A stretch of DNA of 64,000 bases from a virus. A program made the position numbers and the translations under genes. The notes beneath the pieces are model-generated. The model searched no databases. It saw only the letters and a program-made list of their open reading frames with translations, and was not told where the DNA came from. Positions 6,318-59,650 of the stretch are shown one piece after another. The stretch is taken from positions 27,977-91,976 of IMG/VR virus record IMGVR_UViG_3300028908_000005. One strand, 5' to 3'. How positions within the stretch are numbered: the first letter of the stretch is position 1; each line of letters begins with the position of its first letter.

Positions 6318-7142
6318 TCAGCGAAGCAGCTCACCGTATCGCTGCACACGCCGCGGAATGCTTCGGTAAATAATCGCTAGGATCGCCGCCGCATGCGGCG
6401 ACATCGCATCTGTAAGCCACGATTTCGGATACCGCGACATGTTGACCACGCCGAACGCGATCTGAAAATCGCTCTGTGGTATCTGCCGCGCTGGAAATTC
6501 CAACGGCGGCTGCCAATCAGCCGGCGCAAGCATCATGTACGAAAACCTCGTTACGACATGCGCTTGCCGTTCGGCAAAACCATTAACCCGCCGCAACACG
6601 ACGGTAAACCTGTTAGCGGCGGCCGGTACGTCTGCTGCCACAAGACGTCGAAATTTTCGCCGCAACGGTTTATAAGTCTCTTTCGCTATTTTGTCAAACT
6701 GGACCGTCGGCGCCGGCCCGTAAAGCTCGATCACATTGCTGCCGTCGGTACTGCCAAGGCTCAATGATCCATGAAACACACGCATATTCGTGCTGTTTTC
6801 CCAGACACGACGCATCGCGAAGAACAACCTGACCACGGATGCGCCGAAACAAAATGGGCAAATTGGGATGTTACATCGCGGACGGGCGCCACGGTAATAA
6901 ACACCAACCGGCGGACAGACCATCGCAAGCCGCATCCTCGGGCTCACCGGCAAACCGGTGCGCTCCATGTCGTACAAACGGCGACGCCACAGTTTCTGCA
7001 CCTGGAGAATCTTCTCGCAGCAATTCTTCTGCGTCATCCGACCAACCAAACGATCGAACACGGCGCGACGAGCAGTCCAGCTTGCCTGGTCATTGAACAT
7101 CGCTACCGGTTCCCAATTCGGGTTCCACTGCGGTTTCTCCAT
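6318..7142 (-). CDS. Hypothetical protein with Cys cluster (CNIPICPFC)
   Basis: ATG 7142 with GGAGA upstream; first gene after the non-coding gap. Confidence 0.7.
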   Translation of the reverse strand: MEKPQWNPNWEPVAMFNDQASWTARRAVFDRLVGRMTQKNCCEKILQVQKLWRRRLYDMERTGLPVSPRMRLAMVCPPVGVYYRGARPRCNIPICPFCFGASVVRLFFAMRRVWENSTNMRVFHGSLSLGSTDGSNVIELYGPAPTVQFDKIAKETYKPLRRKFRRLVAADVPAAANRFTVVLRRVNGFAERQAHVVTRFSYMMLAPADWQPPLEFPARQIPQSDFQIAFGVVNMSRYPKSWLTDAMSPHAAAILAIIYRSIPRRVQRYGELLR

Positions 7143-7390
7143 CTGATCTTCTCCGTAGTTTGCCGCCTGAGCTCCGTACGCGGCGGCTGAGACGCTGTAA
7201 CGGTACTTGAGGTGTTCTGAGTCATTCGGCGGCTCGAGGCTCTCAGAAGCCAAATATGAGCTTCAATAAACACCACCCAAAAGTATTACGGTTTAGTGGT
7301 CCTTCGCATTGGTGTCATAGACATCTGTACACTATGGCGGAACTGTCAAAATCGGCGAGTGGAATTGGCTGTAGTCCAGCATCTGTAGGC

Positions 7391-7477
7391 TAGAGCACCC
7401 GCGTGCAAAGTAAAAGCACGCGGGTGTGCTCTATCCTGGATTACTTAGTAACTTTTACTTTGTTACTAAGTAACCAG
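7391..7477. other. Twin inverted repeats with mutually complementary loops in an AT-rich intergenic region (possible origin or structured element)
   Basis: Hairpin 1 at 7391-7433 has loop AAAGTAAAA; hairpin 2 at 7436-7477 has loop TTTTACTTT. Confidence 0.7.
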
Positions 7478-7851
7478 CAGGTTACAGAAACCGCATGTGT
7501 TAATTTTTTACCTTGTTTTATAGGCTAAAGTCCACTTTAGAGGCCAATTTCGCCAATTTGTTGTCACAGCAAATTTTGATTTTACACAATAAAAACATAC
7601 CACCTCTGGGGTTTGAAACGACTAGCTGCGGAATTTTCCAATCGGGTGGTTTTTACCACCTTTGGATTGAGATTATGTTTCAATAGTCTCTCTCCCTGCC
7701 GCCGCCGAACTAAACGTATGACCTCAAAGGTTGTAGAAAACTCTGTCATTTTGACACACAATCTAGTAGACCTTGGTTGTGTGCTAACAATTTGTCACAC
7801 TTCTGCCGCCGAAATGCTTGCATTTGTGCGACCAAAAAAAGAATTATTTGA

Positions 7852-7887
7852 GCGCAAAAACAACGGCCTGAGTCGTAGCTCAGGCCG
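7852..7887 (-). terminator. Intrinsic terminator
   Basis: On the minus strand CGGCCTGAG-ctacga-CTCAGGCCG is followed by TTGTTTTT, just after the stop at 7908. Confidence 0.7.
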
Positions 7888-7907
7888 CCGTTTCGGTATC
7901 CGGATAC

Positions 7908-8327
7908 TTATTTCTTGGACTTCTTGCAGGAGTCGAGTTCTGGATACTTCGCGCACACTTTTGCTTTCACCTTCGCCGGATCAGAAGCGTACCGCCGATA
8001 AGCTAGCGCTGCGATAGCTCTTTTCTTCGTATCGATCGGGAAACTGCCACTCGGCTCATGTTTCTTACTTGGGAATACTTGTTTTGATTTCGGCAGCTTC
8101 TCCCGCCGTTCTTGTGTTATTTCGGAGTACTTCCGAAACATCTTCTCGTGCTTCGCTTTGAGCTTCCGCAGCTTCTTCCTTTTCGTTTCGGCAAACTCTG
8201 TCGCCACCGACGGTTTCACCTTCTTGGCCAGTTGTTTGACCTTCTTGCTTGGCGCTTCGATTTCGCCTTTCTGTACGGCATGGACCATGCCGAACAGCCG
8301 CTGCTGCGCCTTCGATTTAGCGGGCAT
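7908..8327 (-). CDS. Small Lys-rich protein, DUF3008-like N-terminus
   Basis: MPAKSKAQQRLFGMVHAVQKGE start typical of DUF3008-like phage proteins; AGGAGG RBS; C-terminal FPIDTKKRAIAALAY. Confidence 0.75.
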   Translation of the reverse strand: MPAKSKAQQRLFGMVHAVQKGEIEAPSKKVKQLAKKVKPSVATEFAETKRKKLRKLKAKHEKMFRKYSEITQERREKLPKSKQVFPSKKHEPSGSFPIDTKKRAIAALAYRRYASDPAKVKAKVCAKYPELDSCKKSKK

Positions 8328-8396
8328 AATGTTTAACCTCCTGATTGGTTTGTTGTCCAATCCGGATTATAACACTCTGCCGACATAGAAGAAAAT

Positions 8397-10222
8397 AACC
8401 ATGCGATGCCTTGCCGAGCAGCGACTAGCCGCGCCAAGCCCTACCTAGCCGTGCCAAACCTCGCCGGGCTCTGCCCAGCGTGGCCAAGCCAAGCCAAAAG
8501 AAATCCCAGCAGCCGCCGTTAGACGACTGCTGGGCAATACCATGCAATACCGTGCCTTGCCCGGCAACGCCGCGCCTGGCCCCGCAGTGACAAGCCTTAC
8601 CGTGCTCGAGAAGCCTACGAAGTCCCAGCAGCCGCCGTTAGACGGCTACTGGGCAATACCATGCAATACCGTGCAGTGCCCCGCAACGACTAGCCGAGCC
8701 ATGTAGTGCCGGACCCCGCAGTGCCACACCATGCCATACCAGGAGAAATCCCAGCAGCCGCTGCTAAACGGCTACTGGGCAATACCTCACATCGCCGGGC
8801 AATACCTCGCATTGCCTCGCCGTACCATACCGAGCCCAGCAATGCCTTACACTGCCTAGCGTTACCGTGCCCAGCCGTGCTCGAGAAGCCTACGAAGTCC
8901 CAGCAGCCGCCGTTAGACGGCTACTGGGCGATGCCAAGCCTTGCTTCGGCAAGCGATGCTCTGCCTGGCCAGGCAACGCCCTGCCCAGCGCAGCCGCGCC
9001 TTGCCATAGCTGTTTTGCCACGCACGACCCAGCCTTGCCATACTCTGCCAAACCACGGCTTGCCAGCTGAAATCCCAGCAGCCGCTGTCAAACGGCTACT
9101 GGGCAATACCTTGCAATACCATGCAATACCTCGCAATGCCCAGCATTACCTCGCACCGCAGTGCCTTGCCATACCTAACCTTGCGCTGCGCTACCATGCC
9201 TCGCCACCCCTCGGCGCGCCGTGCCGCTCTTGAGAGCAGCAAGCAGAAATCCCAGCAGCCGCCGCTAGACGACTACTGGGCAATACCATGCAATGCCGCG
9301 CAGTACGGCGCCATGCCCCGCCCAGCCTAGCGCAGCCGAGCCAAAAGAAATCCCAGCAGCCGCCGCTAGACGACTACTGGGCAATACCATGCAATGCCGT
9401 ACACAGCCGTGCCAAACCTAGCCGAGCCATACCTGGCCTCGAACTGCCCTGCCCTACCGAGCCTAACCAAACCAGGCCGTGCCGTGTAAATCCCAGTAGC
9501 CGCCGCTAGACGACTACTGGGCAATACCTTGCAATGCCGCGCAGTACGGTGCCATGCCCCGCCCGGCCGAGCCCAGCAAGGCCACGGCTCACCCTGCCGC
9601 GCCGAGTAAATCCCAGTAGCCGCGGTCAAACGGCTACTGGGCAGTACCTTGCATTGCCACGCAGCGCCGTGCAAAGCCGAACAATGCCATACACTGCGTC
9701 GCCAAACCCCGCCCCGCATTACCAAGCCGAACGATACCTAGCCGAACCACGCCCTGCCCATCTTGGCCAAGCCTCGCCGTATGAAGCCTCGGCAGCGGCG
9801 ATTAAACCGTTGCCGAGTAATTGCCTTGCACCACCGGGGCAAGCCGAGCCTTGCACTGGCAGGCCGAACCCTGCAAAACCATGCCCATCCGGAGCATGCC
9901 GAGCCACGCAAATCCAAGCAGCCGCCGCTAGACGACTGCTTGGCAATACCTTGCAATGCCTGGCATCGCCAAGCCCAGCCCCGCCGTGCATCGCCATGAC
10001 GAGCTGCCGCCGTGCCGGGCCACGCCGATCCGTGCCGTGGGCAAGCCGAGCCTTGCAGTTCCAGGCCGTGCACTACCAAACCTCGCCCTGCCGCGCCGAG
10101 TAAATCCCAGCAGCCGCGGTCAAACGGCTACTGGGCGATATCATGCAATGCCGGACCTCACCAGACCTCGCCGGGCCTTACCAAACCCCGCCGGACCCGG
10201 CCTCGCCACACCTTGGCTTGCA
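8397..10222 (-). ncRNA. Structured repeat array: 13 GGY-NN pentamer tracts separated by 12 conserved hairpins (candidate guide-RNA array for the adjacent RAMP gene)
   Basis: 30-nt hairpins start at 8505, 8624, 8750, 8899, 9074, 9251, 9352, 9492, 9612, 9788, 9914 and 10106. Minus-strand unit: (GGY-NN)n, TGCAWGGTATTG, CCCAGYAGYCG-N8-CGGCTRCTGGG, AYTT. Stem mismatches read as G.U on the minus strand. The repeat structure is certain; RNA expression is inferred. Confidence 0.85.
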
Positions 10223-10235
10223 TCGAAACTCGGGT

Positions 10236-10829
10236 CTATGCGGCTGCAGACCGGGTCTTCTCGTCGACTTTCCACTTCGTGACGACGAACCGCCCATAAG
10301 GGCCTTTCGTGTCCGGGCGGAAATCTCCCAAGCCGATTCGTTTACCGGCTGCGTCGACCAACTCGCGCGTCAACCCGAGCGACATAATCTCTTCGTCGAG
10401 GTCCAAGGTAAACGCCAATTTCCAATCGGTAAAGCATGGACGGTGCCGCAGGATTCGACCGCCTGTCGACGGAATGCGAACCGCGCGGGTGTCTACCATC
10501 CACGGTTCCTTGTGGATAATTGGCAGCTCGATCTCAACAATCGCCAGCGCGCTCGGCACCAGCGACGTCTTTTGCGTTGTGATCTTCGACTTCCCGTTCT
10601 TGAAAAACTTTCCGGCGGCGATAATGGCGCGGAACAGATTCGGACCGGGGATAATCGGCTTACCGGTCTTTTCGCTGATATACAGGCAATCTTCAGCCTG
10701 TTCTTTCGGCGATTTCTGTTCGCCAACCTGGGCTGCTCTTGTGCCCTTGGTTGCAGCCATCGCAGCCGCATCGGTAAATTTGTGAACCAACAACGGGGAA
10801 ACGCCTTCGATCTCACAACTGATCAACAT
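10236..10829 (-). CDS. Stand-alone RAMP/Cas7-like RNA-binding protein
   Basis: RAMP hallmarks in order: first strand IEGVSPLLVH, PIIPGPNLFRAI (compare P.IPGSSLKGA), thumb-like VDTRAVRIPSTGGRILRHRP, WKLAFTL strand, C-terminal Gly-rich loop AGKRIGLGDFRPDTKGPYGRF. Confidence 0.8.
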   Translation of the reverse strand: MLISCEIEGVSPLLVHKFTDAAAMAATKGTRAAQVGEQKSPKEQAEDCLYISEKTGKPIIPGPNLFRAIIAAGKFFKNGKSKITTQKTSLVPSALAIVEIELPIIHKEPWMVDTRAVRIPSTGGRILRHRPCFTDWKLAFTLDLDEEIMSLGLTRELVDAAGKRIGLGDFRPDTKGPYGRFVVTKWKVDEKTRSAAA

Positions 10830-10861
10830 ACTACACACCTTACAAGAAAATGTCTTCGGTC

Positions 10862-10881
10862 GCGGGCTTAATTACGCCCGC
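10862..10881 (-). terminator. Short intergenic hairpin between the upstream gene and the RAMP gene
   Basis: GCGGGC-N8-GCCCGC immediately after the stop at 10885; weak U-tract. Confidence 0.35.
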
Positions 10882-10884
10882 AGC

Positions 10885-11295
10885 TTATTGAGCCTTATGG
10901 CCTTGGGCCGCGTCCTCGCGCGCCCATTTCAGCAGTAAATCGTAGAGTTCGTCGATCGACGCGACAGTCTCGAAATATGCGTAACTGTCGCTCGGTTCGT
11001 CGCCGAAACTCATACCGCCGGTAAGCAGCATCGCGTAGTCCATTCCCGGAAATCGCACTGCGCTAACATCCCGGCGATCGGGAGCTCCCAGAACGTGCTC
11101 GACGGCGTCCATGATCATCGCGCGGCGTTCTGCCGCTGTGACGTATTCGTCGCCGGCATCGAGCTGTCCTGTAAACTCGGCAATATCTTTAAGATCGCGA
11201 TCGCTGAACTTGTTTAGCAGTTCGCGAATCGCCGCCCGCCGCGAGTCCGTCAACTCTGCTTGCGGAACACCCATGAGGATTAAATCAGCGCCCAT
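10885..11295 (-). CDS. Hypothetical protein
   Basis: Acidic 136-aa ORF in operon orientation with AAGG RBS. Confidence 0.75.
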   Translation of the reverse strand: MGADLILMGVPQAELTDSRRAAIRELLNKFSDRDLKDIAEFTGQLDAGDEYVTAAERRAMIMDAVEHVLGAPDRRDVSAVRFPGMDYAMLLTGGMSFGDEPSDSYAYFETVASIDELYDLLLKWAREDAAQGHKAQ

Positions 11296-11299
11296 AACA

Positions 11300-11524
11300 C
11301 TACCTTTTGATTAACGGACATTCACGCAGCAACGCTTCGACCGCCTCGTCGCCGCCATGCTCGTGTGCAAACTTTTTGAACTGTTGCGACAATCGCACCA
11401 CGTTCAAAGTGCGGATACGTCTGCGGCATTTGCTGCAGGCCAGCAAATAACGCCGCTTGCCAGGTCGCAACCACGCGATCGATGTCAAATGCAATGCGTG
11501 GTCATCGTCCTCATACAACAACAT
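11300..11524 (-). CDS. Small hypothetical protein (CxxC...HxH)
   Basis: Fills the gap and overlaps the RNase H stop. Confidence 0.55.
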   Translation of the reverse strand: MLLYEDDDHALHLTSIAWLRPGKRRYLLACSKCRRRIRTLNVVRLSQQFKKFAHEHGGDEAVEALLRECPLIKR

Positions 11525-12134
11525 CGGTCATCCCTTCAGGAAAACTCTCTGGAAGAACATCATAAATTGTCGCCTCCTGTGGGAACCCTTTGTAGCGTCT
11601 TGCTAGAACAGCGAGGGCGTCATTTTCGACTCCTTTCGCCTTGAGCCTGGCTTGCCTTGCAATCTCGTCTACGAGAATGTTCATATGAACTACGTTTCGC
11701 GGGACATGATGCCACCGCACGCGGTAGCTATTACTCAAAGCATCTATCATCGCCCAGCTCGTACGGTACTTTTTGCGATAATCCGGCGTGTTGCCGGCTA
11801 ACGCGACCGCACGATTATCGGTAATGATGTCGATCGTCACCAACTCGCCGCGCTGCGCCAACTGTTTGCGAAATTTCGGGCCCTCGGTCTTGACGCCGAC
11901 GAACCATTCGATCGCATGCAGATACGGCCATAGCTCAGTGATCTGCGTATTCGCTACATTGAGCGAGCCGTAAAACAGTTTGCGCTTCTGCGTAAGCCGG
12001 TTGATCAGCACGCAGGCCCAGCCGCCTGCCCGTGCCCAGATGCTCCCGCTACCGTCACCAATCAGAATGATATGCCCATCTTCGATATTCAACCGCCGAA
12101 CTAATTGACCAACAGTAAAGATCTGTTGGCTCAT
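11511..12134 (-). CDS. rnhA: RNase HI-family protein
   Basis: IGDGSG...GGWACVL, TEL, IITDN, WHHVPRN...NILVDEIAR give the D-E-D-D catalytic layout. Confidence 0.8.
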   Translation of the reverse strand: MSQQIFTVGQLVRRLNIEDGHIILIGDGSGSIWARAGGWACVLINRLTQKRKLFYGSLNVANTQITELWPYLHAIEWFVGVKTEGPKFRKQLAQRGELVTIDIITDNRAVALAGNTPDYRKKYRTSWAMIDALSNSYRVRWHHVPRNVVHMNILVDEIARQARLKAKGVENDALAVLARRYKGFPQEATIYDVLPESFPEGMTDVVV

Positions 12135-13567: not shown

Positions 13568-16500
13568 ATGTCAAACCTCCATACAGCTACCCAATTACCC
13601 GAAACATTTACACGAGTTTTTGAGTTGCAGAGAAGTGACGGCACAGCGATCCGCGACGAAGAGCGGCTATCGCGATTCGTTCATCTGATCCAAAACAAGC
13701 GTATACACTCTTTCGTCCACGCTTTGCCGCTCATTCTCAACTTGAAGGGCCGGCCATACACGCTCAAAGATCATGCCCCGTTCGAAGAACTGTTCCGGTT
13801 CAAACAGCCGCGGCGGACAACCTACAAGACGGGACGGCAAGTAGGTAAGACCGTATCGCAGGCTGCAGCAATCGTAGCTCGACTTGCGTCGATGCCTAAC
13901 AAGTATCACCCAGAGCCGCATACGATGCTGCACATCACGCCGCTCTATGAACAGATCCGGCGTTTCAGCACGATGTTCCTCGGACCGTTCCTGCAAACGT
14001 CGCCGATACGACAGCTGCTCGTCGACCCGCGCTGCGTCGAAAGTGTGCTGCACCGCACGTTCCGTAACGGCTCGCAAATCCTGCTGTCGTTCACCGGTAT
14101 CGGCCCGGAACCGAACCGAATACGTGGTGCTTTCGCAGACGAATTATCGGAAGATGAATCAGTCACCGGTGACACGCTGCTGACGACGCCGTTAGGCCAA
14201 ATACCGATCAAAGACGCTAGACCCGGCGACATCGTAAAATGTTTTACCGAAGATAACCACGTACGATGGACGACCGTATCCAAAGTGTGGTACGCTGGCA
14301 GACGCCACTGCTACCGCATCACGCTAGAGGATGGATCTTATGTCGACAGCACATCAGAATCGTACGTGGCCACAGATTCCGGATGCTTTCGAGTATCGCA
14401 ACTCATCGAAATTGCCGCCGGAAGCCGCAGCTGCGCAACGCGAAATCGTACTAGCGAACAAGAACAAACCACTGAACCAACAGCAGCTGCAGCTAGTGTA
14501 CGGGACGATGCTCGGCGACGGGCATCTGACGCCGCGAGGTGCCTACGTGGCGACACAGAGCTACGCGTTCAGGGAATACCACTGGGCAAAGTACACGATA
14601 TTGTCCGATTACGTCTACGGCGTACCGTCGAAGCAACAGAAACGCGGAACAGACTTCTGGTCGGTGAAATTCTGGACTGCCGCCACACCGGAATTAGCGT
14701 CCCTACGGCAGCTTTGGTACCCGGACGGCCACAAACGCGTAAATCGCGAAATCTTGCAGACTATCGACGAACTCGGATTTTTGGACTGCGTAATGTGGTG
14801 GATATGCGACGACGGAACCAGATGGGGTCCGAAGTACTCGCCTACACTAAGCCTTTGTACGCACGCTTTTCCACAAAGCGATGTCGAACTTTTGTCGAAC
14901 TGGCTGATGGAACACGGCTATCGATCATCGATTCGCGAGCAGACCCAGTACAGAAAGCCGTTGTATACCCTGATGTTTGCAACGGAGTCAGCCGTACGGC
15001 TGATGCGGAAACTGACACCTTTGGTACATCCTACTATGCTATACAAGGTGGCTGTTACTGGGAGGAACGACACGGAAATCTGTCTGTTCTGCAAACAACC
15101 ATTCCAGTTGAAAACGTTGCGGCGTCGGACCGACCTCGCGTGGTTCCCTTGCTGCGACAACCCCGCGTGCAAGTCTGCCAAGAAGAAGTTCATGCGCCAA
15201 CGCGAACTGTCCAAGCCCGGCGCCAAAGCCAAACGGCAGCAAGCAAAAAGAGAATACGTGCAACGAAACAAAGCCGCAATCTACGCCAAAAACGCCGAAT
15301 GGGCCAGAAACAATCCGGACAAGGTTCGCGAAATTTGGCGACGCGCCGACGCCAAGAAACGCCGCAAGCAACAAGAAGCTATGCCGCCGTGCGTCATTTG
15401 CGGCAAACAAATCAAATTGGAACGCGGCATGAAACATACGCGAACCGCTTGCGGCGGCTGCCAGCCGGAACTGCTGCGGCGACGGGCCAAGATCGCTTAC
15501 TACAAGCGCCGCATGCGTACCGCCAAGACACAGGAACAACGCGAAGCCGCAGCTGCGAAAATGCAAGCCCTGAAAAAGTCGATTGGCGTCGAATAGTCAG
15601 CATCGAATACGTCGGCATACGCGATGTTTACGACGTTGAAACCGCCGGACCGCATACCGTAATACTCAACGGGCATGCGCGACCGCAATGCCAAGACATC
15701 GACCCAAGCCACGAAGGCGTGGTTGACGAAACCATGTCACACTCTACTTGGGCCGTCAAGAAGAGCACCGGCACGCCAAAGACGCTCGACAACTTGCTGC
15801 AGATCAAGTGGGAAGAAAGCAGCCAAGCGGAGTGGTTCGTGCCGTGCTTTCATTGTACCACAAACGGACATCCGACCTACAACATTCCGTCGATCGAATA
15901 TCATCTCGACGCTATGATCGGCCCTTGGCGCGAAGATATATCCGACAAGAGCCCAGCGACGATTTGCTACAAATGCGGTAAGCCGATTTCACCGCGATTC
16001 GGTCGTTGGGTGCATCGTTACAAAGCGCGGCGTTGGACGCATGCCGGCTATCATATACCGCAGATTATTATGCCGATCCACTTCGCTGACCCAAACAAGT
16101 GGTCAACGTTATTACTCAAACGACGCACATTGCCAGCTTATCTGTTTTACAACGAAGTGCTCGGCGAAGCTTACGATACGGCAGCAAAACTTGTCACGCT
16201 CGCCGACCTTAACAAAGCTGCCGTGCTTTGGCCGAACGACGACCACGAAGCTCTGCAGCGACGTCGGAATTATTCACTCGTCGTCCTCGGCGTAGACTGG
16301 GGCGGCGGCGGTAAAGCCGGTGACAGCTACACGACACTTGCGCTCGTTGGCGTTCTGCCGACCGGCGAACTGAATGTCATCTGGGGCAAGCGACTGCTCA
16401 CGCCGCACGATCATATTCGCGAAGCCAAAGAAATCATACACTACTGCAACATGTTCTCGCCCGATTTCGTTGCACACGACTACACTGGCGGCGGTTCGCT

Positions 16501-16915
16501 ACGCGAAACGATATTGATCCAGTCAGGCTATCCGCTGCAGAAGATCATGGCCTGCAGCCTTGTACGCAGCGCTCGGCAGGCTCCGTGCCAGTTCATACCG
16601 GCTACGATGCAGCATCCGCGCGATCACTACAACGTCGACAAGGCCAGAACGCTGCTGCTTACGTGTGCCATGATCAAACTTGGGCGGCTCAGATTCTTTC
16701 AGAACGATTACATCTCGGAATCAGAGCCGGGGCTTATCCGCGATTTCTTGGCCCTCGTTGAAGATAAAATCAGCTCGCAAGCCGCTGCTGAGATTTACCG
16801 AATCACGAAGATCGCGAATAAATCTGACGATTTTGCGCAAGCCGTCAACTTCGCCTGCGTCGCTATCTGGCACGCCACGCGGTCCTGGCCAAACTTGGCG
16901 CTCGGCAACAACTAG
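13568..16915 (+). CDS. terL: Terminase large subunit (lambda GpA-like) containing an intein
   Basis: Walker A-like KTGRQVGKT, IRG.FADELSEDE|CQD Walker B split by the intein, STGTPK coupling motif, Zn-ribbon segment, FYNEVLGEAY, RNase H-like nuclease LGVDWG...DDFAQA. Confidence 0.92.
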   Translation: MSNLHTATQLPETFTRVFELQRSDGTAIRDEERLSRFVHLIQNKRIHSFVHALPLILNLKGRPYTLKDHAPFEELFRFKQPRRTTYKTGRQVGKTVSQAAAIVARLASMPNKYHPEPHTMLHITPLYEQIRRFSTMFLGPFLQTSPIRQLLVDPRCVESVLHRTFRNGSQILLSFTGIGPEPNRIRGAFADELSEDESVTGDTLLTTPLGQIPIKDARPGDIVKCFTEDNHVRWTTVSKVWYAGRRHCYRITLEDGSYVDSTSESYVATDSGCFRVSQLIEIAAGSRSCATRNRTSEQEQTTEPTAAAASVRDDARRRASDAARCLRGDTELRVQGIPLGKVHDIVRLRLRRTVEATETRNRLLVGEILDCRHTGISVPTAALVPGRPQTRKSRNLADYRRTRIFGLRNVVDMRRRNQMGSEVLAYTKPLYARFSTKRCRTFVELADGTRLSIIDSRADPVQKAVVYPDVCNGVSRTADAETDTFGTSYYAIQGGCYWEERHGNLSVLQTTIPVENVAASDRPRVVPLLRQPRVQVCQEEVHAPTRTVQARRQSQTAASKKRIRATKQSRNLRQKRRMGQKQSGQGSRNLATRRRQETPQATRSYAAVRHLRQTNQIGTRHETYANRLRRLPAGTAAATGQDRLLQAPHAYRQDTGTTRSRSCENASPEKVDWRRIVSIEYVGIRDVYDVETAGPHTVILNGHARPQCQDIDPSHEGVVDETMSHSTWAVKKSTGTPKTLDNLLQIKWEESSQAEWFVPCFHCTTNGHPTYNIPSIEYHLDAMIGPWREDISDKSPATICYKCGKPISPRFGRWVHRYKARRWTHAGYHIPQIIMPIHFADPNKWSTLLLKRRTLPAYLFYNEVLGEAYDTAAKLVTLADLNKAAVLWPNDDHEALQRRRNYSLVVLGVDWGGGGKAGDSYTTLALVGVLPTGELNVIWGKRLLTPHDHIREAKEIIHYCNMFSPDFVAHDYTGGGSLRETILIQSGYPLQKIMACSLVRSARQAPCQFIPATMQHPRDHYNVDKARTLLLTCAMIKLGRLRFFQNDYISESEPGLIRDFLALVEDKISSQAAAEIYRITKIANKSDDFAQAVNFACVAIWHATRSWPNLALGNN
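14159..15688 (+). mobile_element. Intein (510 aa) in the terminase Walker B
   Basis: N-terminal Hint region SVTGDTLLTTPLGQIPIKDARPGDIV...YRITLEDG; C-terminal RIVSIEYVGIRDVYDVET.GPHTVILNG..RPQ followed by Cys+1. Removing it restores ...EDE-CQD. Confidence 0.88.
14340..15596 (+). CDS. LAGLIDADG homing endonuclease with basic/Zn-finger C-terminus, nested in the +1 frame within the intein
   Basis: Two LAGLIDADG motifs (VYGTMLGDG, WWICDDG), LSLCTHAF, VHPTMLYKV, then CxxC pairs. Start codon uncertain. Confidence 0.88.
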   Translation: MSTAHQNRTWPQIPDAFEYRNSSKLPPEAAAAQREIVLANKNKPLNQQQLQLVYGTMLGDGHLTPRGAYVATQSYAFREYHWAKYTILSDYVYGVPSKQQKRGTDFWSVKFWTAATPELASLRQLWYPDGHKRVNREILQTIDELGFLDCVMWWICDDGTRWGPKYSPTLSLCTHAFPQSDVELLSNWLMEHGYRSSIREQTQYRKPLYTLMFATESAVRLMRKLTPLVHPTMLYKVAVTGRNDTEICLFCKQPFQLKTLRRRTDLAWFPCCDNPACKSAKKKFMRQRELSKPGAKAKRQQAKREYVQRNKAAIYAKNAEWARNNPDKVREIWRRADAKKRRKQQEAMPPCVICGKQIKLERGMKHTRTACGGCQPELLRRRAKIAYYKRRMRTAKTQEQREAAAAKMQALKKSIGVE

Positions 16916-47929: not shown

Positions 47930-50881
47930 CTAAATCAAGCCGCCGTCGTCGCCAGTATCGGCTGCTGTCGATGAAATACCAGAGCCTTGACCGGCTGACG
48001 GAGACGATACCGGAGTCGTTTCGGAAGTATTTGACTCGGTATCCGGAGACGATACCAACCCTTCCGACGTATGACTCGACTGTGTCTCTGACGGTGTAGC
48101 TGCCAAGTACGCGTCCACGGTATTTGTTTCTGATGGATGCCAACCAAGCAAAGCGTCGACATCGTGTGTCTCCGATGGACGACGCCCGAGGAGTGCGTCG
48201 ACATCGTGTGTCTCTGATGGGTGACGCCCGAGAAGTGCGTCGACAGTATGTGTTTCTGATGGGTGCCAACCAAGCAAAGCATCCACGGTATGCGTCTCTG
48301 ATGGATGACGCCCGAGGAGTGCGTCGACAGTATGCGTCTCTGATGGGTGCCAACCAAGCAAAGCATCCACGGTATGCGTCTCTGATGGGTGCCGGGCTAA
48401 CAATGCGTCGACCTTGTAATCTATCGTGACGATCTTGAGCAATCTTGCATCTACGTTGTACGTCTTTTCGTGGATTTCGCCAAGTACAGCATCGACTGAA
48501 ACAGTAACGATCGGCTGGCGGTACAGTGTTGCGTCGATCGAGTAGGTTTTCGTTTCGGTTTTGGCGAGCTCGGCGTCAGTCGAAACGTCTTTGACGATAA
48601 CAGTCTGCAACACGGCGTCTACCATATACGTCTCGCTGACGGTAGCAGCCAACTCTGCATCCGTACTGGCTGTTTTTGTGAATGATGTGAGCAGCTCAGC
48701 ATCTACACTTGCTGTTTTTGTGAACGATGTAAGCAGCTCAGCATCTACGCTAGCAGTCTTAGTAAATGCCGTAAGTAGTTCAGCATCTACACTTGCTGTT
48801 TTTGTGAACGATGTAAGCAGCTCAGCATCTACACTTGCCGTTTTTGTGAATGATGTAAGCAGCTCAGCATCTACGCTAGCGGTCTTAGTAAATGCCGTAA
48901 GTAGTTCAGCATCTACACTTGCCGTTTTTGTGAATGATGTAAGTAGTTCAGCATCTACGCTAGCCGTCTTAGTAAATGCCGTAAGTAGTTCAGCATCTAC
49001 GCTTGCGGTCTTAGTAAATGCCGTAAGTAGTTCAGCATCTACACTTGCTGTTGCTGTTTCGGCCTTTACGAGCAAGCCGTCAACAGAAATAGTTACTGTT
49101 TTAGCGGCTAGAAGCTCTGCATCGACGCTAACGGTATGCGCCGGCGTTGACAACAACAAAGCATCGATTTGATCTGTAGTCGTAATAGTCTGCAGCAGTC
49201 TGGCGTCTACTTCGGCTGTCGCCGTTTCGGCTACCTGTAAGTCTGCATCGATCTGGTTAGTTACCGTAGCTGTACTCAACAACAGTCCGTCTACGCCGTG
49301 CGTTACGGTAAACGCCGTTTCGATATCAGCATCAACCGAATGATCCCGCGTAAACGACGTCAGCAGCAACGCATCTGTCGTGTGCGTATGCGTGAACGCT
49401 GTCTCGATATCGGCATCGACGTCGCCGGTCAGTGTGGCGGCAGCTTGTAGGTAGGTGTCAGTCGATACAGTCTTGGTAATCGCCTCTAGCAATTCCGCAT
49501 CGACGCTATGTGTCAGCTCCGGATACGCAGCCGCGTAAGCGTCCGTGTCGTGCGTTGTAGTAATCGCAGCCTTTAATACAGCATCCGCACTGGCCGTCGT
49601 AGTAATGGCAGCCTTTAATACAGCATCCGTACTAGCCGTCGTAGTAAGCGATCGGAGCAACTCGGCGTCGATGTCGTGCGACACCGTTTCGGTAGTTTCA
49701 AGGTCTGCATCGACCTTGTACGTCACCGTTTGCGTTTTCTGCAGGTCTGCATCAACCCTATGAGTTACTTGACCGGCACCGCTTAGCATCGCGTCAGTGC
49801 TATGCGTTGTCGTAATGTCGCCTTGCAGCGTAGCGTCTAACTGATGCTGTGTCGTTATACCTGCGAGCAGCAGAGCGTCGACGTCGTGCGTAGCCGTTTC
49901 AGTGCTCTGGATATCGCTATCGACGTCCCATGTCGTTGTCTGCGTTTTCTGCAGGTCTGCATCAACCCTATGAGTTACTTGACCAGCGCCGCTTAGCATC
50001 GCGTCCGTACTGTGTGTTGTCGTAATCACGCCGCGAAGTTCGGCGTCTGTTTGGAACGTATAGCTGCCGATAACCTGCAAAATTGCATCGACTGTACTCG
50101 TCTGCAGCACGGATGTCAGCAAGTCAGCATCAACTTTATGGGTTAGCTGGCCGGCGCCGCTTAGCATGCCGTCAGTCGTATGCGTCACGGTCGTCGCTGC
50201 CTGCAGAATCGCATCGACCGTAGCCGTCTCCTCTTCGGCTGCTACCAGCAAGGCATCGCCGCCGAATGTTAGTATCTCGATCGTTGCCGATGACGACCGA
50301 CCGATCCACTCCGGAGTTCGCGAAGGCTCCTGCTCAGATATGCTTGACCCGATAGGTAACGCTATACTGCTGCTAGCTTGCGCCGGACACGGACACACAA
50401 GCTCTGCTTGGCCTTCGAAATCGCCATTGATAGGCGGCGGGCCGAGTTCGCCGCAGTCTTCGCCGTGCAGCGGGATCCACGTATAGCCGCCTTCGCAGTC
50501 GTCAGTACGGTAGCGTACCAGCGTCCAAGCTTGTGAAGACTCCGAAAGGTACGCAGAAGACGAACCGTATTGGGCCACGCACGGACACCATACCCACAAA
50601 CAACAGTCGATAAGCGGCGTAACATTACCGTCTTTGCCATCTTTGCCGTCTTTGCCGTCCTTGCCAGGCGGCCCAGGTGGTCCTGGTTTACCGTCTTTAC
50701 CGGGTGGGCCTGGCGGGCCAGGTATGCCGATATCGCCTAAATCTTGCGGTGCCGCCGCTTCGCATTGCCAGATAGGGTCTGGCGCCAAAGGGATACTACA
50801 ATTGCTGATCAGCGTCGGCGGCCCGATGACGGTCATCGACGGTAGTGAACACCGATCTGGATCAAAAATGTAGTCGGCCAT
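47930..50881 (-). CDS. Virion structural protein: collagen-like N-terminus plus long 14-aa Thr/Asp repeat region
   Basis: GPPGPPGKDG triplets; dozens of T.T.sVDA.L units with a 14-aa period. Confidence 0.8.
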   Translation of the reverse strand: MADYIFDPDRCSLPSMTVIGPPTLISNCSIPLAPDPIWQCEAAAPQDLGDIGIPGPPGPPGKDGKPGPPGPPGKDGKDGKDGKDGNVTPLIDCCLWVWCPCVAQYGSSSAYLSESSQAWTLVRYRTDDCEGGYTWIPLHGEDCGELGPPPINGDFEGQAELVCPCPAQASSSIALPIGSSISEQEPSRTPEWIGRSSSATIEILTFGGDALLVAAEEETATVDAILQAATTVTHTTDGMLSGAGQLTHKVDADLLTSVLQTSTVDAILQVIGSYTFQTDAELRGVITTTHSTDAMLSGAGQVTHRVDADLQKTQTTTWDVDSDIQSTETATHDVDALLLAGITTQHQLDATLQGDITTTHSTDAMLSGAGQVTHRVDADLQKTQTVTYKVDADLETTETVSHDIDAELLRSLTTTASTDAVLKAAITTTASADAVLKAAITTTHDTDAYAAAYPELTHSVDAELLEAITKTVSTDTYLQAAATLTGDVDADIETAFTHTHTTDALLLTSFTRDHSVDADIETAFTVTHGVDGLLLSTATVTNQIDADLQVAETATAEVDARLLQTITTTDQIDALLLSTPAHTVSVDAELLAAKTVTISVDGLLVKAETATASVDAELLTAFTKTASVDAELLTAFTKTASVDAELLTSFTKTASVDAELLTAFTKTASVDAELLTSFTKTASVDAELLTSFTKTASVDAELLTAFTKTASVDAELLTSFTKTASVDAELLTSFTKTASTDAELAATVSETYMVDAVLQTVIVKDVSTDAELAKTETKTYSIDATLYRQPIVTVSVDAVLGEIHEKTYNVDARLLKIVTIDYKVDALLARHPSETHTVDALLGWHPSETHTVDALLGRHPSETHTVDALLGWHPSETHTVDALLGRHPSETHDVDALLGRRPSETHDVDALLGWHPSETNTVDAYLAATPSETQSSHTSEGLVSSPDTESNTSETTPVSSPSAGQGSGISSTAADTGDDGGLI
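48120..49050 (-). repeat. 42-bp coding tandem repeats
   Basis: HPSETH(T/D)VDALLG(W/R) about 7 times (48120-48410) and TKTASVDAELLT(A/S)F about 9 times (48655-49045). Confidence 0.9.
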
Positions 50882-52479: not shown

Positions 52480-54990
52480 CTAAGACGTATAGCAGTTCAC
52501 TTTGACTTGTTGACCATCGTACGAACCATCGTAAGATGGCGGATCGCCGCAAATACACGTCGGTGCCGGCGATGCCGAGCCTTGGTAATCCTCGCATTCA
52601 TTTGCGACTTCGACCCACGTATAACCTGTACCCGGATTCGACCACTCATACGTACAAGTGCCTGGGCAATCGTCACCGTCGTCAGCCGGCGTCGAAACCG
52701 AAGCTTGTGCGGGTTGCGACCCTTGCGATTGCTGCTGCGATCCTTGCGATTGTTGTTGTGATTGCTGCGAAGGTTGTTGCGAAGGTTGCTGTGAGGGTTG
52801 CTCAGACGGCTGTTGCGAAGGTTGCTCAGACGGCTGTTGCGAAGGTTGCTCAGACGGCTGCTCAGATGGCGGTGTTTGCGACGACGGTTGCTCAGATGAC
52901 AAATGCAAACTGCTGGAAGCAATCGAAGCCGCAGACGAACTCGATGTACAGAGTAACCACGGCTTTGCCATATCGCAGAACGGGTCGCGTATGATGAATC
53001 GCCACGTAGCATCGCAACAAACTGCTGGGTCGGTATCTACCTTGTAAACAGTGATATTGAACAGCGCCTGGAAACAATCCGGAGAGTACAAGCAGTTGAA
53101 CTCAGATGCGCAGACTCTGCCGAAGCACTGCGGGTGCAGCTTGTCCGGGCCGACGGATACTTCCAACACCCAGCAATTACCGTCGTAGTACATCTTCAAC
53201 CACATCGGCCCGTAAATGATATGGTCGCCAGCGGCAATTTTGCAGTAACCTTCCCAATACTTGTACGGGAAGCCGGATTGCTGCCGCAGCCGCATCCATG
53301 AGCAGGTACAGCCGGGCCACGTCGAGGTGTCGCCGCACGGCGTGTTTACGAGTGTGCATAGCACTTCCAGGCAGTCCGTCGGCCAGCAATCCATCGTACT
53401 ACACGACATGCTGCTGGCACTGCTGCATGCGAGATCGCCTATCAAGCCGGTAAACTTGGCGTTGCAGCAGCTATCTGCCGGCGCGGCATTCCGCATATCG
53501 ACGTAAAGCTTCGACACGAAACAAGGGTCGCAACCGCTAACCGGCGATAGCCGACTGCGATACCAGACGTTATCAGCGCCGCACAGTACTGCGAAATACC
53601 AATAACCGTTTATGCACTCCATGCGTACTGCGAAATCGCCGAACGAGAACGACGCGGTGCCGAACCAAGTGTGTAAGACAGGGCTGTACGACAGAATCGT
53701 TTTATCGCTTTCCCTGCCGCAAATGCCGTCGTAGACAAGCAAAAGCGGCAAACACTCGCCCGGCCAGCAGCACGCTTGCGAAGACAGCGAACTCGACGCG
53801 TTGCCGACAGCCGCGCTGCTGCTTTGCGACGCTGCAGATGATTTGGCCGGCCCGGAAGATGGATGGCTAGACGTATCGCTGCTCTGCCCGCCCTGCGTGC
53901 GGCTGCTGCTTGGCCCACTCGTATGCGACGTACCCGGCGTCAGCGGCTGCTGCGATGATCCCGATTGCAACTGCAAACTCGACGAAACTACCGGTGCCTT
54001 CGGTAAGTTCGGGCAAATCGCCAAATCGTGTAAATCGACATCGACCACCACGGTGTGCGGATCAGTCGCGTGTTGCCGTACCGTTACGCCGGTGCCGCCT
54101 AGCAGATTGATTCGCGGGCCGGGAACGCCGTCGATCGTTTTGATAAGCTCGCCGCATTGAGGGCTGCCGTCAAGAAGCGTAGCGCCGGCAGGCGGACGTT
54201 CACCGTCATAAAGGGGCACTTCGCTACACGGCTCGCCAAGACCGGCACCGACAAACGCGTTGACGATGATGCTGTTATCGGCTGCGTTTTGCTCGATCGT
54301 ACAGTTATAGCCCTCCTTGAGCTCGACAGCGCCTTGGATACAGCGGCGGTTGACGTAGTATGCCTGTACTGATTCGCTCAGACTGCCGCGACACGCCGCC
54401 GGCGGTTCGTACATCGTACGGGCGGCGTTAGCTGCGTTCAGCGTCCGTACAAAACCGTTGCGGAGGCTTTGGATTCTCGCCGGCTCGATATATAGCGCGG
54501 TATCGTCCCGCGTCAGCGATTGCCCTTCGGCCAATATGGTACACAGCTCGGTCAGCGTCCCGATCGTCATCCAAGCTTCGGCTACGAAAAGTTCGCACGT
54601 CTGCGAACTTTGCGAGCTGGCGCTGCTAGAGCTCGATGTAGTGGTGAGCGGCGCAGAACTGCTGGACTGCGGTCGCAGCCGCACCTCGGCAATACTGACG
54701 GCGTACTCATCGTCGCTAACGGCAAATTCGAACACCAGCTGATAATTCTGTAAGCTGGCTGCCGTGAAGCCGAATGTGAAGGCGACAATACCGACCGTAC
54801 GCGTGATCTCCTCGAGATATACGCGATTCAAAGCTTCGTCGTAGTCCGCAGCGACGCCAACGACGCACGAGAAGTCGACGACGGTCGTGTCCGGCAGCTG
54901 GAACTTGCTGCCGTCGGATCGCGTCAACTCGCTTGCCGTATCGACAAACGGATAAGCTCGGCCCTGGTTGTCGTTGTAGAACGGAATCAT
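52480..54990 (-). CDS. Tail/baseplate-associated protein with Cys-rich modules and SEQP/SQQP repeats
   Basis: N..RAYPF start and IKTIDGVPG motif shared with neighbouring genes. Confidence 0.7.
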   Translation of the reverse strand: MIPFYNDNQGRAYPFVDTASELTRSDGSKFQLPDTTVVDFSCVVGVAADYDEALNRVYLEEITRTVGIVAFTFGFTAASLQNYQLVFEFAVSDDEYAVSIAEVRLRPQSSSSAPLTTTSSSSSASSQSSQTCELFVAEAWMTIGTLTELCTILAEGQSLTRDDTALYIEPARIQSLRNGFVRTLNAANAARTMYEPPAACRGSLSESVQAYYVNRRCIQGAVELKEGYNCTIEQNAADNSIIVNAFVGAGLGEPCSEVPLYDGERPPAGATLLDGSPQCGELIKTIDGVPGPRINLLGGTGVTVRQHATDPHTVVVDVDLHDLAICPNLPKAPVVSSSLQLQSGSSQQPLTPGTSHTSGPSSSRTQGGQSSDTSSHPSSGPAKSSAASQSSSAAVGNASSSLSSQACCWPGECLPLLLVYDGICGRESDKTILSYSPVLHTWFGTASFSFGDFAVRMECINGYWYFAVLCGADNVWYRSRLSPVSGCDPCFVSKLYVDMRNAAPADSCCNAKFTGLIGDLACSSASSMSCSTMDCWPTDCLEVLCTLVNTPCGDTSTWPGCTCSWMRLRQQSGFPYKYWEGYCKIAAGDHIIYGPMWLKMYYDGNCWVLEVSVGPDKLHPQCFGRVCASEFNCLYSPDCFQALFNITVYKVDTDPAVCCDATWRFIIRDPFCDMAKPWLLCTSSSSAASIASSSLHLSSEQPSSQTPPSEQPSEQPSQQPSEQPSQQPSEQPSQQPSQQPSQQSQQQSQGSQQQSQGSQPAQASVSTPADDGDDCPGTCTYEWSNPGTGYTWVEVANECEDYQGSASPAPTCICGDPPSYDGSYDGQQVKVNCYTS

Positions 54991-59640: not shown

Positions 59641-59650
59641 AACCAGCTAC

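What the first reader, a model, noticed from the sequence alone, without database searches (positions are those of the whole stretch)
10148..10212. Decoded first tract: 13 perfect GGY-NN units give a testable gapped target
The minus strand reads GGT-GT GGC-GA GGC-CG GGT-CC GGC-GG GGT-TT GGT-AA GGC-CC GGC-GA GGT-CT GGT-GA GGT-CC GGC-AT. The NN string is GT GA CG CC GG TT AA CC GA CT GA CC AT, about 26 informative bases, similar to a CRISPR spacer. The gene-proximal tract looks the most regular; distal tracts carry more variants (TGC, AGC, CGC) but largely keep phase, e.g. 19 pentamers in register at 8401-8495. Inference: if one target base is skipped per NN, the target is GTnGAnCGnCCnGGnTTnAAnCCnGAnCTnGAnCC or its complement, and skipping every third base could tolerate synonymous codon changes.
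Basis: partly seen in the sequence, partly recalled or inferred. Interest (0 to 1): 0.8.

Follow-up and report, generated by a model that had tools for sequence, protein, structure and literature searches.

The report
Phage VIPR guide-RNA array, first tract
The 13 GGY-NN pentamers are real and form the first guide of a 13-tract VIPR array, a phage RNA-guided DNA-silencing system first described in 2026. It is a genuine new example of a known class, and its target is still unknown.

Summary
The minus strand 10212->10148 reads 13 perfect GGY-NN pentamers, beginning 23 nt after the stop of a 197-aa gene.

That gene is a Vipr protein. It matches the solved SUSP1 Vipr structure (E 1e-5 alone, 9e-12 with a profile). 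It keeps the residues that hold G1, G2 and Y3, and its model folds like Cas7/Csm3.

The 1.8-kb array holds 12 conserved hairpin tails, with compensatory changes and minus-strand-only G-U pairs, and 13 pentamer tracts. NN positions carry 1.9-2.0 bits. The scaffold G2 is 99% and Y3 is 100%.

In 108 related loci, GGY-NN runs lie almost only on the vipr strand (1778 units against 30). Six relatives' guides have significant targets, all at a 1-nt skip and none at 0, 2 or 3. In each, the skipped base falls on the wobble position of a long ORF; the two sites annotated are a helicase and a recombination exonuclease.

No target was found for this window's own guides. The best near-match, 21/24 in dnaE-type polymerase genes, is not above shuffled controls.

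This scan has noted VIPR arrays in at least 269 other genomes. Verdict: new member of a known kind.

The parts
10236..10829 (-). vipr gene. 197 aa from the ATG at 10829; an in-frame GTG lies at 10838. Stand-alone Cas7-like RAMP protein.
   Evidence: called product P0002. PDB 36pp 'SUSP1 Vipr protein': E 1.2e-5 and 9.2e-12 over the full length with a profile. AF2 model pLDDT 79. Best Foldseek hits are Csm3/Cas7 chains, prob 1.0. PHROG 4652.
8396..10212 (-). Whole vrRNA array: 13 pentamer tracts and 12 hairpin tails, starting 23 nt after the vipr stop.
10102..10212 (-). vrRNA 1, the finding. 13 strict GGY-NN units (10212-10148), then TGCAT GATAT CG, hairpin 10135-10106 and AUUU.
9910..10097 (-). 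vrRNA 2. A long tract with two 1-nt register shifts. Hairpin 9943-9914 carries the CCAAG/CTTGG compensatory variant.
9784..9905 (-). vrRNA 3. Hairpin 9817-9788 has a largely rewritten but still paired stem.
9608..9778 (-). vrRNA 4. About 26 in-phase units, many with UGC/CGC/UGU scaffolds. Hairpin 9641-9612.
9488..9603 (-). vrRNA 5. Hairpin 9521-9492.
9348..9483 (-). vrRNA 6. 8 strict units, one off-pattern unit (TTCGA), then 7 strict units. Hairpin 9381-9352 is followed by a U-run.
9247..9342 (-). vrRNA 7. Hairpin 9280-9251. Its 3' half is a near-duplicate of vrRNA 5.
9070..9225 (-). vrRNA 8. Hairpin 9103-9074.
8895..9064 (-). vrRNA 9, with an internal register shift. Hairpin 8928-8899.
8746..8881 (-). 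vrRNA 10. Hairpin 8779-8750.
8620..8740 (-). vrRNA 11. Hairpin 8653-8624.
8501..8601 (-). vrRNA 12. Hairpin 8534-8505 is followed by a U-run.
8396..8495 (-). Tract 13. 20 pentamers in register and no hairpin tail. It ends just before the next gene's ribosome-binding region.
10885..11295 (-). 136-aa gene immediately upstream of vipr. It sits where an accessory (vap) gene could be, but it has no assignable family and is not conserved next to vipr in relatives.

Best explanation
This is a VIPR (Viral Interference Programmable Repeat) locus of an uncultured, probably large, phage. The 197-aa Vipr protein is a stand-alone Cas7-like RAMP. It is followed on the same strand by an array of 12-13 vrRNA genes.

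Each vrRNA is a run of GGY-NN pentamers ending in a conserved segment (GGCAU-UGCAW-GGUAU) and a 13-bp hairpin with an AUUU(C/A) tail.

Inferred from the solved SUSP1 system: one Vipr protomer binds each pentamer and sequesters G1, G2 and Y3. The N4N5 bases are presented for pairing to double-stranded DNA that reads NN-x-NN-x, with one skipped base per unit. Binding silences transcription of a competing mobile element.

The tract in the finding is the first and cleanest guide. It has about 12 variable units and predicts the site GTnGAnCGnCCnGGnTTnAAnCCnGAnCTnGAnCC on either strand, most likely in frame with the skipped base at the codon wobble position.

What is shown here:
- The repeat anatomy.
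- Homology of the protein to Vipr, with the GGY-contact residues kept.
- The structured tails.
- The link between vipr and GGY-NN tracts across relatives.
- The 1-nt-skip rule in relatives.

What is inferred: expression, RNP assembly, silencing, and the identity of this array's targets.
For: Protein:
- PDB 36pp 'SUSP1 Vipr protein' is the only significant sequence hit (E 1.2e-5). With a 30-sequence profile it aligns over 1-186 against 1-190 at E 9.2e-12.
- The SUSP1 residues that read GGY are H17, R138, D177, W178 and R179 (paper). They align with H16, R130, D169, F170 and R171 here. R130, D169 and R171 are invariant and F170 is nearly invariant in 30 homologues; H16 is not conserved, the clade consensus there being N.
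- The AF2 model (pLDDT 79) hits Csm3/Cas7 chains first in Foldseek (E 8e-7, prob 1.0).

RNA:
- 13 of 13 perfect units in tract 1, and 230 in-phase units against 6.4 in shuffles.
- NN entropy is 1.9-2.0 bits while the scaffold is near-invariant.
- The hairpin has 97.4% of cells paired and 5 pairs with changes on both sides. 0 of 500 shuffles reach this. Its U-G pairs would be C-A mismatches on the other strand.

Context:
- The source is an IMG/VR virus record and a terminase gene lies 3 kb away.
- No CRISPR array is in the window and the proteins flanking vipr match no known defence-system or cas model.

Comparative:
- About 1628 homologues.
- In 108 loci, strict GGY-NN runs total 1778 units on the vipr strand against 30 on the opposite strand, mostly directly flanking the gene.

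Rule:
- 6 of 125 relatives' guides have hits at E<0.01, all at skip 1 and none at 0, 2 or 3.
- In all six, and in a seventh 16/16 hit, the skipped base is codon position 3 of an ORF of 255-606 aa. The two target ORFs annotated are a DEAD/ResIII helicase and a DUF3799/exonuclease VIII-like gene of related phages.

Literature.
Against: - No target was found for any of this window's own guides. No gap size beats shuffled guides in the phage's 92 kb or in 1.2 Mb of related loci.
- Exact 1-nt-skip scans gave nothing convincing for tract 1 (three collections), tracts 6 and 13, or the 3' halves of tracts 1, 4 and 6. The single hit is a histidine-kinase gene with the skip on codon position 1, which is about what chance gives.
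- No accessory vap gene could be recognised.
- About a quarter of the units have UGC/CGC/AGC instead of GGY, and tracts 2 and 9 have register shifts, so some guides may be decayed.
- Several tracts have 17-26 in-phase units, more than the published 9-16.
- Expression was not measured.
- The type (I-VII) could not be assigned because the papers' tables are not held.
Confidence: 0.9

Rival explanations
1. A real VIPR-type array that is largely decayed, or that serves as a decoy or sponge. The tracts still bind Vipr, but most no longer address any DNA. Alternatively they titrate a rival phage's Vipr, as described for satellite-borne solo vrRNAs.
For: - No targets were found for any guide.
- 25% of units have non-GGY scaffolds, and tracts 2 and 9 have register shifts.
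- Tracts share duplicated segments, for example vrRNA 5 and vrRNA 7.
- The third VIPR paper describes decoy and redirecting vrRNAs.
Against: - Tract 1 is perfect (13 of 13), and tracts 6 and 13 are nearly so.
- The vipr gene is intact with all GGY-contact residues kept.
- The tails stay paired through compensatory changes.
- NN positions are at maximal entropy rather than drifting towards a consensus.
- Missing targets are expected for an environmental phage whose rivals are unsampled.
Confidence: 0.07
2. An ordinary non-coding minisatellite or REP-like repeat field with no guide function. Its position next to a RAMP-like gene would be a coincidence.
For: TRF reports only weak 10- and 20-nt periods here, and Rfam has no match.
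Against: - The 5-nt phase is kept over 1.8 kb with invariant G2/Y3 but random N4N5.
- The same pairing of vipr homologue and same-strand GGY-NN tracts recurs in most of the 108 related loci (1778 against 30 units).
- Relatives' guides hit real genes only at skip 1.
Confidence: 0.01
3. The region is protein-coding on the plus strand (ORFs 8706-9233, 9534-10103 and 10143-10871), and the periodicity reflects a repetitive protein.
For: Open frames of 175-242 aa exist on the plus strand.
Against: - A 5-nt period is incompatible with a fixed reading frame.
- The two plus-strand ORFs tested (8706-9233 and 9534-10103) have no Pfam hit.
- RCC-NN repeats simply lack stop codons.
- The hairpins need G-U pairs that exist only on the minus strand.
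Confidence: 0.01

Closest known systems
VIPR systems (Vipr protein plus vrRNA). The reference is the type II system of Escherichia phage SUSP1 and the Pseudomonas fulva prophage (bioRxiv 10.64898/2026.04.26.720920, .720927 and 10.64898/2026.10.15.759431).
   Same: - A stand-alone protein of about 20 kDa homologous to SUSP1 Vipr, with the GGY-contact residues kept.
- vrRNAs built of GGY-NN pentamers with hypervariable NN, followed by a conserved structured 3' tail.
- An array next to vipr on the same strand, in a phage.
- The 1-nt-skip rule with wobble-aligned skips, verified in the clade.
   Different: - Only about 25% identical to phage Vipr homologues (identity to SUSP1 itself not measured).
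- 12-13 vrRNAs, all downstream of the gene; SUSP1 has one upstream and three downstream.
- The tail is a plain 13-bp hairpin, in four copies followed by a U-run like an intrinsic terminator. SUSP1 has a pseudoknot.
- Several tracts have 17-26 units instead of 9-16.
- About 25% of units use UGC/CGC/AGC scaffolds.
- No recognisable vap gene.
- The host is probably Planctomycetota-like rather than enterobacterial.
- The type (I-VII) is not assignable here.
Class 1 CRISPR-Cas backbone (Cas7/Csm3 filaments on crRNA).
   Same: - RAMP fold with G-loop and thumb.
- One protomer per fixed RNA step.
- Periodic interruption of guide-target pairing by the thumb.
- An array of alternating conserved and variable RNA segments.
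   Different: - No cas1/cas2, Cas5, Cas6 or large subunit.
- No free-sequence spacers.
- Step of 5 nt with 3 sequestered bases rather than 6 nt with 1 flipped base.
- The target is read 2 of every 3 bases.
- No sign of spacer acquisition; tracts appear to diversify by duplication and point change.
TRAP (trp RNA-binding attenuation protein) and its (G/U)AG-NN repeat RNA sites.
   Same: A protein oligomer reads a triplet repeated every 5 nt on single-stranded RNA while the two spacer bases are free. This was my first working analogy.
   Different: TRAP is a closed ring that regulates its own operon's mRNA, and its spacer bases carry no information. The protein here is a RAMP homologous to Vipr, not TRAP, and the spacer bases are the informative part.

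Membership tests
VIPR system | Stand-alone RAMP protein homologous to Vipr, with RRM core, glycine-rich loop and thumb. | tested here: met
   - PDB 36pp SUSP1 Vipr: E 1.2e-5 and 9.2e-12 over the full length with a profile.
- The G-loop GLGDFRP..GP(Y/F)G(R/K)F is conserved in 30 homologues.
- The AF2 model matches Csm3/Cas7 first in Foldseek.
VIPR system | Residues that sequester G1, G2 and Y3 of each repeat (SUSP1 H17, R138, D177, W178, R179). | tested here: met
   They align with H16, R130, D169, F170 (aromatic for W) and R171 here. The roles of these residues come from the structure paper. Contacts in this protein are inferred, not observed.
VIPR system | vrRNA made of tandem YNNGG / GGY-NN pentamers (4 or more units, typically 9-16) with conserved GGY and hypervariable NN, in the intergenic DNA flanking vipr. 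| tested here: met
   - 13 of 13 units in tract 1.
- 230 in-phase units in 13 tracts, against 6.4 in shuffles.
- G2 99%, Y3 100%, NN 1.90 and 2.00 bits.
- Same strand as vipr, starting 23 nt after its stop.
VIPR system | Conserved, structured 3' tail after each repeat tract. | tested here: met
   12 tails align at 84% mean identity. The 13-bp hairpin is 97.4% paired with 5 pairs changed on both sides, and 0 of 500 shuffles are as high. It is a simple hairpin, not the SUSP1 pseudoknot.
VIPR system | Not part of a CRISPR-Cas locus, and usually viral. | tested here: met
   - IMG/VR virus record, with a terminase nearby.
- No CRISPR-type repeat family in the 64-kb window.
- No PADLOC cas or defence hit for the neighbours.
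VIPR system | Accessory gene (vap1-6) next to vipr. | tested here: inconclusive
   The neighbours (136 aa upstream, 150 aa downstream of the array) have no Pfam or PHROG function and are not conserved beside vipr in 80 related viral loci. The papers say 'typically', so this is not an absolute requirement.
VIPR system | Natural targets matching the NN string with a 1-nt skip. | tested here: inconclusive
   - This array: no hit above shuffled guides, and exact scans were empty or at chance.
- Tract 1 with up to 3 mismatches in 401 Planctomycetota genomes: 6 hits, against 1, 1 and 4 in controls.
- The clade: 6 of 125 guides are significant, all at skip 1 and all wobble-aligned.
VIPR system | vrRNAs are expressed, bind Vipr and silence transcription of matching DNA. 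| not testable with these tools
   This needs sRNA-seq, pull-down and reporter assays.
CRISPR-Cas | Identical direct repeats separating unconstrained spacers, together with cas1/cas2 and effector cas genes. | tested here: not met
   The intervals between the conserved elements are themselves strictly 5-nt periodic. The genes flanking vipr match no cas model. Vipr itself matches no PADLOC Cas7 model.

The most novel reading that the evidence does not exclude
This array may represent an undescribed VIPR array architecture. In it, each guide would end in a plain hairpin that doubles as an intrinsic terminator or processing signal. The evidence is that four tails are followed by U-runs and that tracts run up to about 26 units.

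In addition, its cleanest guide may be aimed at a dnaE-type DNA polymerase gene of the host or of a rival element. The evidence is an in-frame, wobble-aligned 21/24 match in two Planctomycetota genomes. If true, this would extend VIPR targets to replication polymerases.
Probability: 0.1. Interest if true: 0.45.

Novelty: new member of a known kind. Interest (0 to 1): 0.25.

Why it matters
It adds a well-formed, large (12-13 guide) VIPR array from an environmental phage far from the enterobacterial and Pseudomonas systems studied so far.

The comparative work gives an independent computational check of the published rule. In this clade, guides match rival phages only with a 1-nt skip. The skip sits on the wobble base of an ORF, and the annotated targets are replication or recombination genes lying next to the rivals' own vipr loci.

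It opens no new question, because the class, the code and the wobble logic were published in 2026. This scan has already flagged such arrays in at least 269 genomes.

Tried and rejected
1. My first working ideas were a TRAP-like protein-binding RNA, a new guide array, or a minisatellite. I dropped them once the protein matched SUSP1 Vipr.
2. Rfam (evalue mode) on 7000-11500 gave no family.
3. Self-targeting: none in the 92-kb record.
4. Cross-targeting of 108 related loci by this window's guides: none. The perfect 'skip 3' scores are self-matches to unmasked variant units of the array itself.
5. Exact 1-nt-skip scans:
   - Tract 1, full length: viral, metagenome and genome collections.
   - Tract 6 (first 12 units) and tract 13: viral collection.
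   - 3' ten units of tract 1: viral and metagenome collections.
   - 3' halves of tracts 6 and 4: viral collection.
   All were empty except one metagenome hit in a histidine-kinase gene. There the skip is on codon position 1, and about one hit is expected by chance.
6. Tract 1 with up to 3 mismatches in 401 Planctomycetota genomes gave 6 hits. Two are in homologous dnaE-type Pol III alpha genes, in frame. A unit-shuffled control gave 1 hit and the reversed controls gave 1 and 4. No other guide converges on those genes. I treat this as a lead only.
7. A tail-motif scan of viral contigs found no other record with this hairpin.
8. Conserved-neighbour clustering to find a vap gene: relatives share an exonuclease, RusA and helicase module that this locus lacks.
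9. VIPR type assignment was not possible because the supplementary tables are not held.
Full report
**Observation.** On the minus strand, 10212->10148 reads GGTGT GGCGA GGCCG GGTCC GGCGG GGTTT GGTAA GGCCC GGCGA GGTCT GGTGA GGTCC GGCAT. That is 13 of 13 GGY-NN units. The tract begins 23 nt after the TAG stop (10238-10236) of a minus-strand gene.

The tract is the first of 13 pentamer-phased tracts spread over 8396-10212. Twelve tracts end in a conserved element of about 55 nt: GGCAT-TGCAW-GGTAT-TG, a 30-nt hairpin, then ATTT(C/A). A caller for in-phase NG(C/T)-NN runs of 4 or more units finds 230 units here. Shuffles of the region give a mean of 6.4 and a maximum of 21. Apart from one 4-unit run in likely coding sequence near the window end, judged chance, strict GGY-NN runs occur nowhere else in the 92-kb record, and none are on the plus strand.

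Over 159 variable-region units the scaffold is G 75% / G 99% / C-or-T 100%. N4 and N5 carry 1.90 and 2.00 bits, and all 16 dinucleotides are used. Two small corrections apply. The 13th unit belongs to the conserved tail-proximal segment, which leaves about 24 informative bases. Tracts 2 and 9 contain 1-nt register shifts.

**The gene.** The upstream gene (10829-10236, 197 aa) has no Pfam hit. It matches one solved structure, PDB 36pp 'SUSP1 Vipr protein'. The E-value is 1.2e-5 alone and 9.2e-12 over the full length with a profile of 30 homologues.

The structure paper names the SUSP1 residues that hold the GGY bases: H17 and D177 for G1, R138 and W178 for G2, and R179 for Y3. In the alignments these correspond to H16, D169, R130, F170 and R171 here. 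R130, D169 and R171 are invariant and F170 is nearly invariant in the clade; H16 is not, the clade consensus there being N. An AlphaFold2 model (pLDDT 79, pTM 0.75) finds Csm3/Cas7 chains of type III, IV and VII CRISPR complexes as its best Foldseek matches (E 8e-7, probability 1.0). The family is large, with about 1628 proteins at E<=1e-3, and is PHROG 4652, 'unknown function'.

**The tails.** The 12 tails align at 84% mean identity. The 13-bp stem is paired in 97.4% of cells. Five pairs show changes on both sides, and none of 500 shuffles reaches the observed values. Sliding the partner by 1-3 columns destroys the pairing. The recurrent U-G pairs would be C-A mismatches on the plus strand, so the RNA is the minus-strand transcript, the same sense as vipr. 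Four tails are followed by U-runs and score as intrinsic-terminator-like sites. Whether they terminate or mark processing is unknown.

**What it is.** A note from this scan used the word 'VIPR-like', and that led me to the literature. Three 2026 preprints describe Viral Interference Programmable Repeat systems:
- They consist of a stand-alone RAMP protein (Vipr) plus vrRNAs of 9-16 YNNGG repeats with a conserved structured tail.
- One Vipr protomer binds per repeat.
- The GGY bases are sequestered and the NN bases pair with double-stranded DNA, skipping every third target base.
- The skipped base usually sits at the codon wobble position.
- The outcome is transcriptional silencing of rival phages and satellites.
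- Seven types are defined, some with relaxed scaffolds such as YNNNG.

Every sequence-level defining feature that I could test is met here (see Membership tests). The exception is that I could not recognise an accessory vap gene. The context is viral: an IMG/VR record estimated 44% complete, a terminase gene nearby, no CRISPR array in the window, and no match to any known defence-system or cas model for the proteins flanking vipr.

**Relatives.** I fetched 80 viral and 28 genomic loci encoding homologues at 47-69% identity. The genomic ones come from MAGs of Planctomycetota, Magnetococcales, Victivallales, Desulfobacterota and others. The closest are Planctomycetota, so a planctomycete-like host is plausible but not shown.

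Strict GGY-NN runs of 4 or more units total 1778 units on the vipr strand against 30 on the opposite strand. They lie mostly directly upstream or downstream of the gene. Arrays in L003 and L035 look like textbook VIPR arrays with their own short tails. The tail differs between relatives. No other viral contig carries this window's hairpin.

**Testing the code.** For this window's 16 guide segments I scanned the phage's own 92 kb and then 0.7 and 1.2 Mb of related loci, at gaps of 0-3 on both strands, against shuffled guides. Nothing exceeded the null at any gap.

Exact 1-nt-skip patterns were scanned in the public collections:
- Tract 1, full length, in viral, metagenome and genome contigs: 0 hits each.
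- Tract 6 and tract 13 in viral contigs: 0 hits.
- 3' halves of tracts 1, 6 and 4 in viral contigs: 0 hits.
- 3' ten units of tract 1 in metagenomes: 1 hit. It lies in a PAS/histidine-kinase gene with the skipped base on codon position 1. About one such hit is expected by chance.

With up to 3 mismatches, tract 1 finds 6 sites in 401 Planctomycetota genomes. The reversed control gave 1. A unit-order-shuffled pattern gave 1, and its own reversed control gave 4. This is not a clear excess. Two of the six sites are the same position of dnaE-type Pol III alpha genes in two genomes (21/24, in frame, skip at wobble). No other guide converges on those genes, and the phage has no dnaE of its own in the part held. 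I keep this as a lead only.

**The code does hold in the clade.** I called 125 guides in the relatives, each with 9 or more NGY units of which at least 70% are GGY. Six have a match at E<0.01 after correction for database size and windows. All six are at skip 1, and none is at skip 0, 2 or 3. A seventh guide (8 units) matches 16/16 and extends to 21/22 through degenerate 5' units.

In all seven hits the skipped base is codon position 3 of an ORF of 255-606 aa. The two target ORFs I annotated are a DEAD/ResIII helicase and a DUF3799 / exonuclease VIII-like gene of other vipr-carrying phages. Guides from two different arrays (L082, L090) overlap on the same K-T-C-D codons of what are probably homologous ORFs upstream of vipr in L085 and L011; these two ORFs were not annotated. 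Pairing stops where the conserved tail-proximal units begin. This justifies leaving GGCAT-TGCAW-GGTAT out of the guides here.

**Mechanism, and how sure.** I put 0.9 on this being a VIPR locus whose tracts are vrRNA guides read by the encoded Vipr. That they silence a rival mobile element through 1-nt-skip pairing follows from the solved SUSP1 system and from the clade-level test. For this array it is inferred, since no target is known.

Alternatives, in order of weight:
- A partly decayed or decoy array (0.07).
- A meaningless minisatellite (0.01).
- Plus-strand coding (0.01).

**Novelty.** The class, the code and the wobble argument are all in print, and this scan has flagged VIPR arrays in at least 269 genomes. 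This locus is a new member. It has some variant traits:
- All 12-13 guides are downstream of the gene.
- The tails are plain hairpins, some terminator-like.
- Tracts are long.
- About 25% of scaffolds are non-GGY.
- No vap gene is recognisable.

**Limits.** Collection scans allow exact patterns only, so targets with 80-95% NN match in IMG/VR or in the home metagenome would have been missed.

Noticed in passing
L082:464 -> L085:3568-3596; L090:4399 -> L011:3115-3140: Guides from two different relatives' arrays overlap on the same K-T-C-D codon stretch of what are probably homologous ORFs (275 and 296 aa) upstream of vipr in two other phages. The ORFs were not annotated; by position and size they resemble the DUF3799/exonuclease VIII-like gene annotated in L023. 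This looks like convergent targeting of a conserved motif.
   Followed up: partly
L013:2810 -> L021:7072-7109; L025:6361 -> L092:13786-13820: Relatives' guides match sites in ORFs of 589 and 606 aa next to the target phage's own vipr. The matches are 23/26 and 22/24 at skip 1, wobble-aligned. The L021 ORF is a DEAD/ResIII helicase; the L092 ORF was not annotated. In many relatives vipr sits in an exonuclease - array - vipr - RusA - helicase module that this window lacks.
   Followed up: partly
L112 and L116 (two Planctomycetota genomes), site at 1501-1535 of each locus: Tract 1 matches 21/24 in frame, with the skip at wobble, in dnaE-type Pol III alpha genes (peptide VDPPGWKPHLDP, between the palm and finger motifs). 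The match is not above shuffled controls.
   Followed up: yes
window 8505-8534, 8750-8779, 9251-9280, 9352-9381 (minus strand): Four of the twelve vrRNA tail hairpins are followed by U-runs and score as intrinsic-terminator-like sites. They could end each vrRNA or be processing signals.
   Followed up: no
window 48069-49068: Long runs of a 42-nt tandem repeat (two blocks of 7 and 9 or more copies at 60-83% identity). They probably encode 14-aa repeats in a structural protein.
   Followed up: no
window 59069-59644: Six copies of a 72-nt tandem repeat at 63-86% identity.
   Followed up: no
window 52718-52870: A 12-nt repeat rich in TGC/TGT codons (TGTTGCGAAGGT-like). If translated it would give a Cys-Cys-Glu-Gly type repeat.
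   Followed up: no
window 11511-12134 (minus strand): The 207-aa gene two genes upstream of vipr has a weak RNase H PHROG hit (phrog_531, E 6.5e-5).
   Followed up: no
window 13568-16915 (plus strand): A 1115-aa ORF with a GpA-type terminase ATPase match only at residues 728-810. I did not re-examine it.
   Followed up: no
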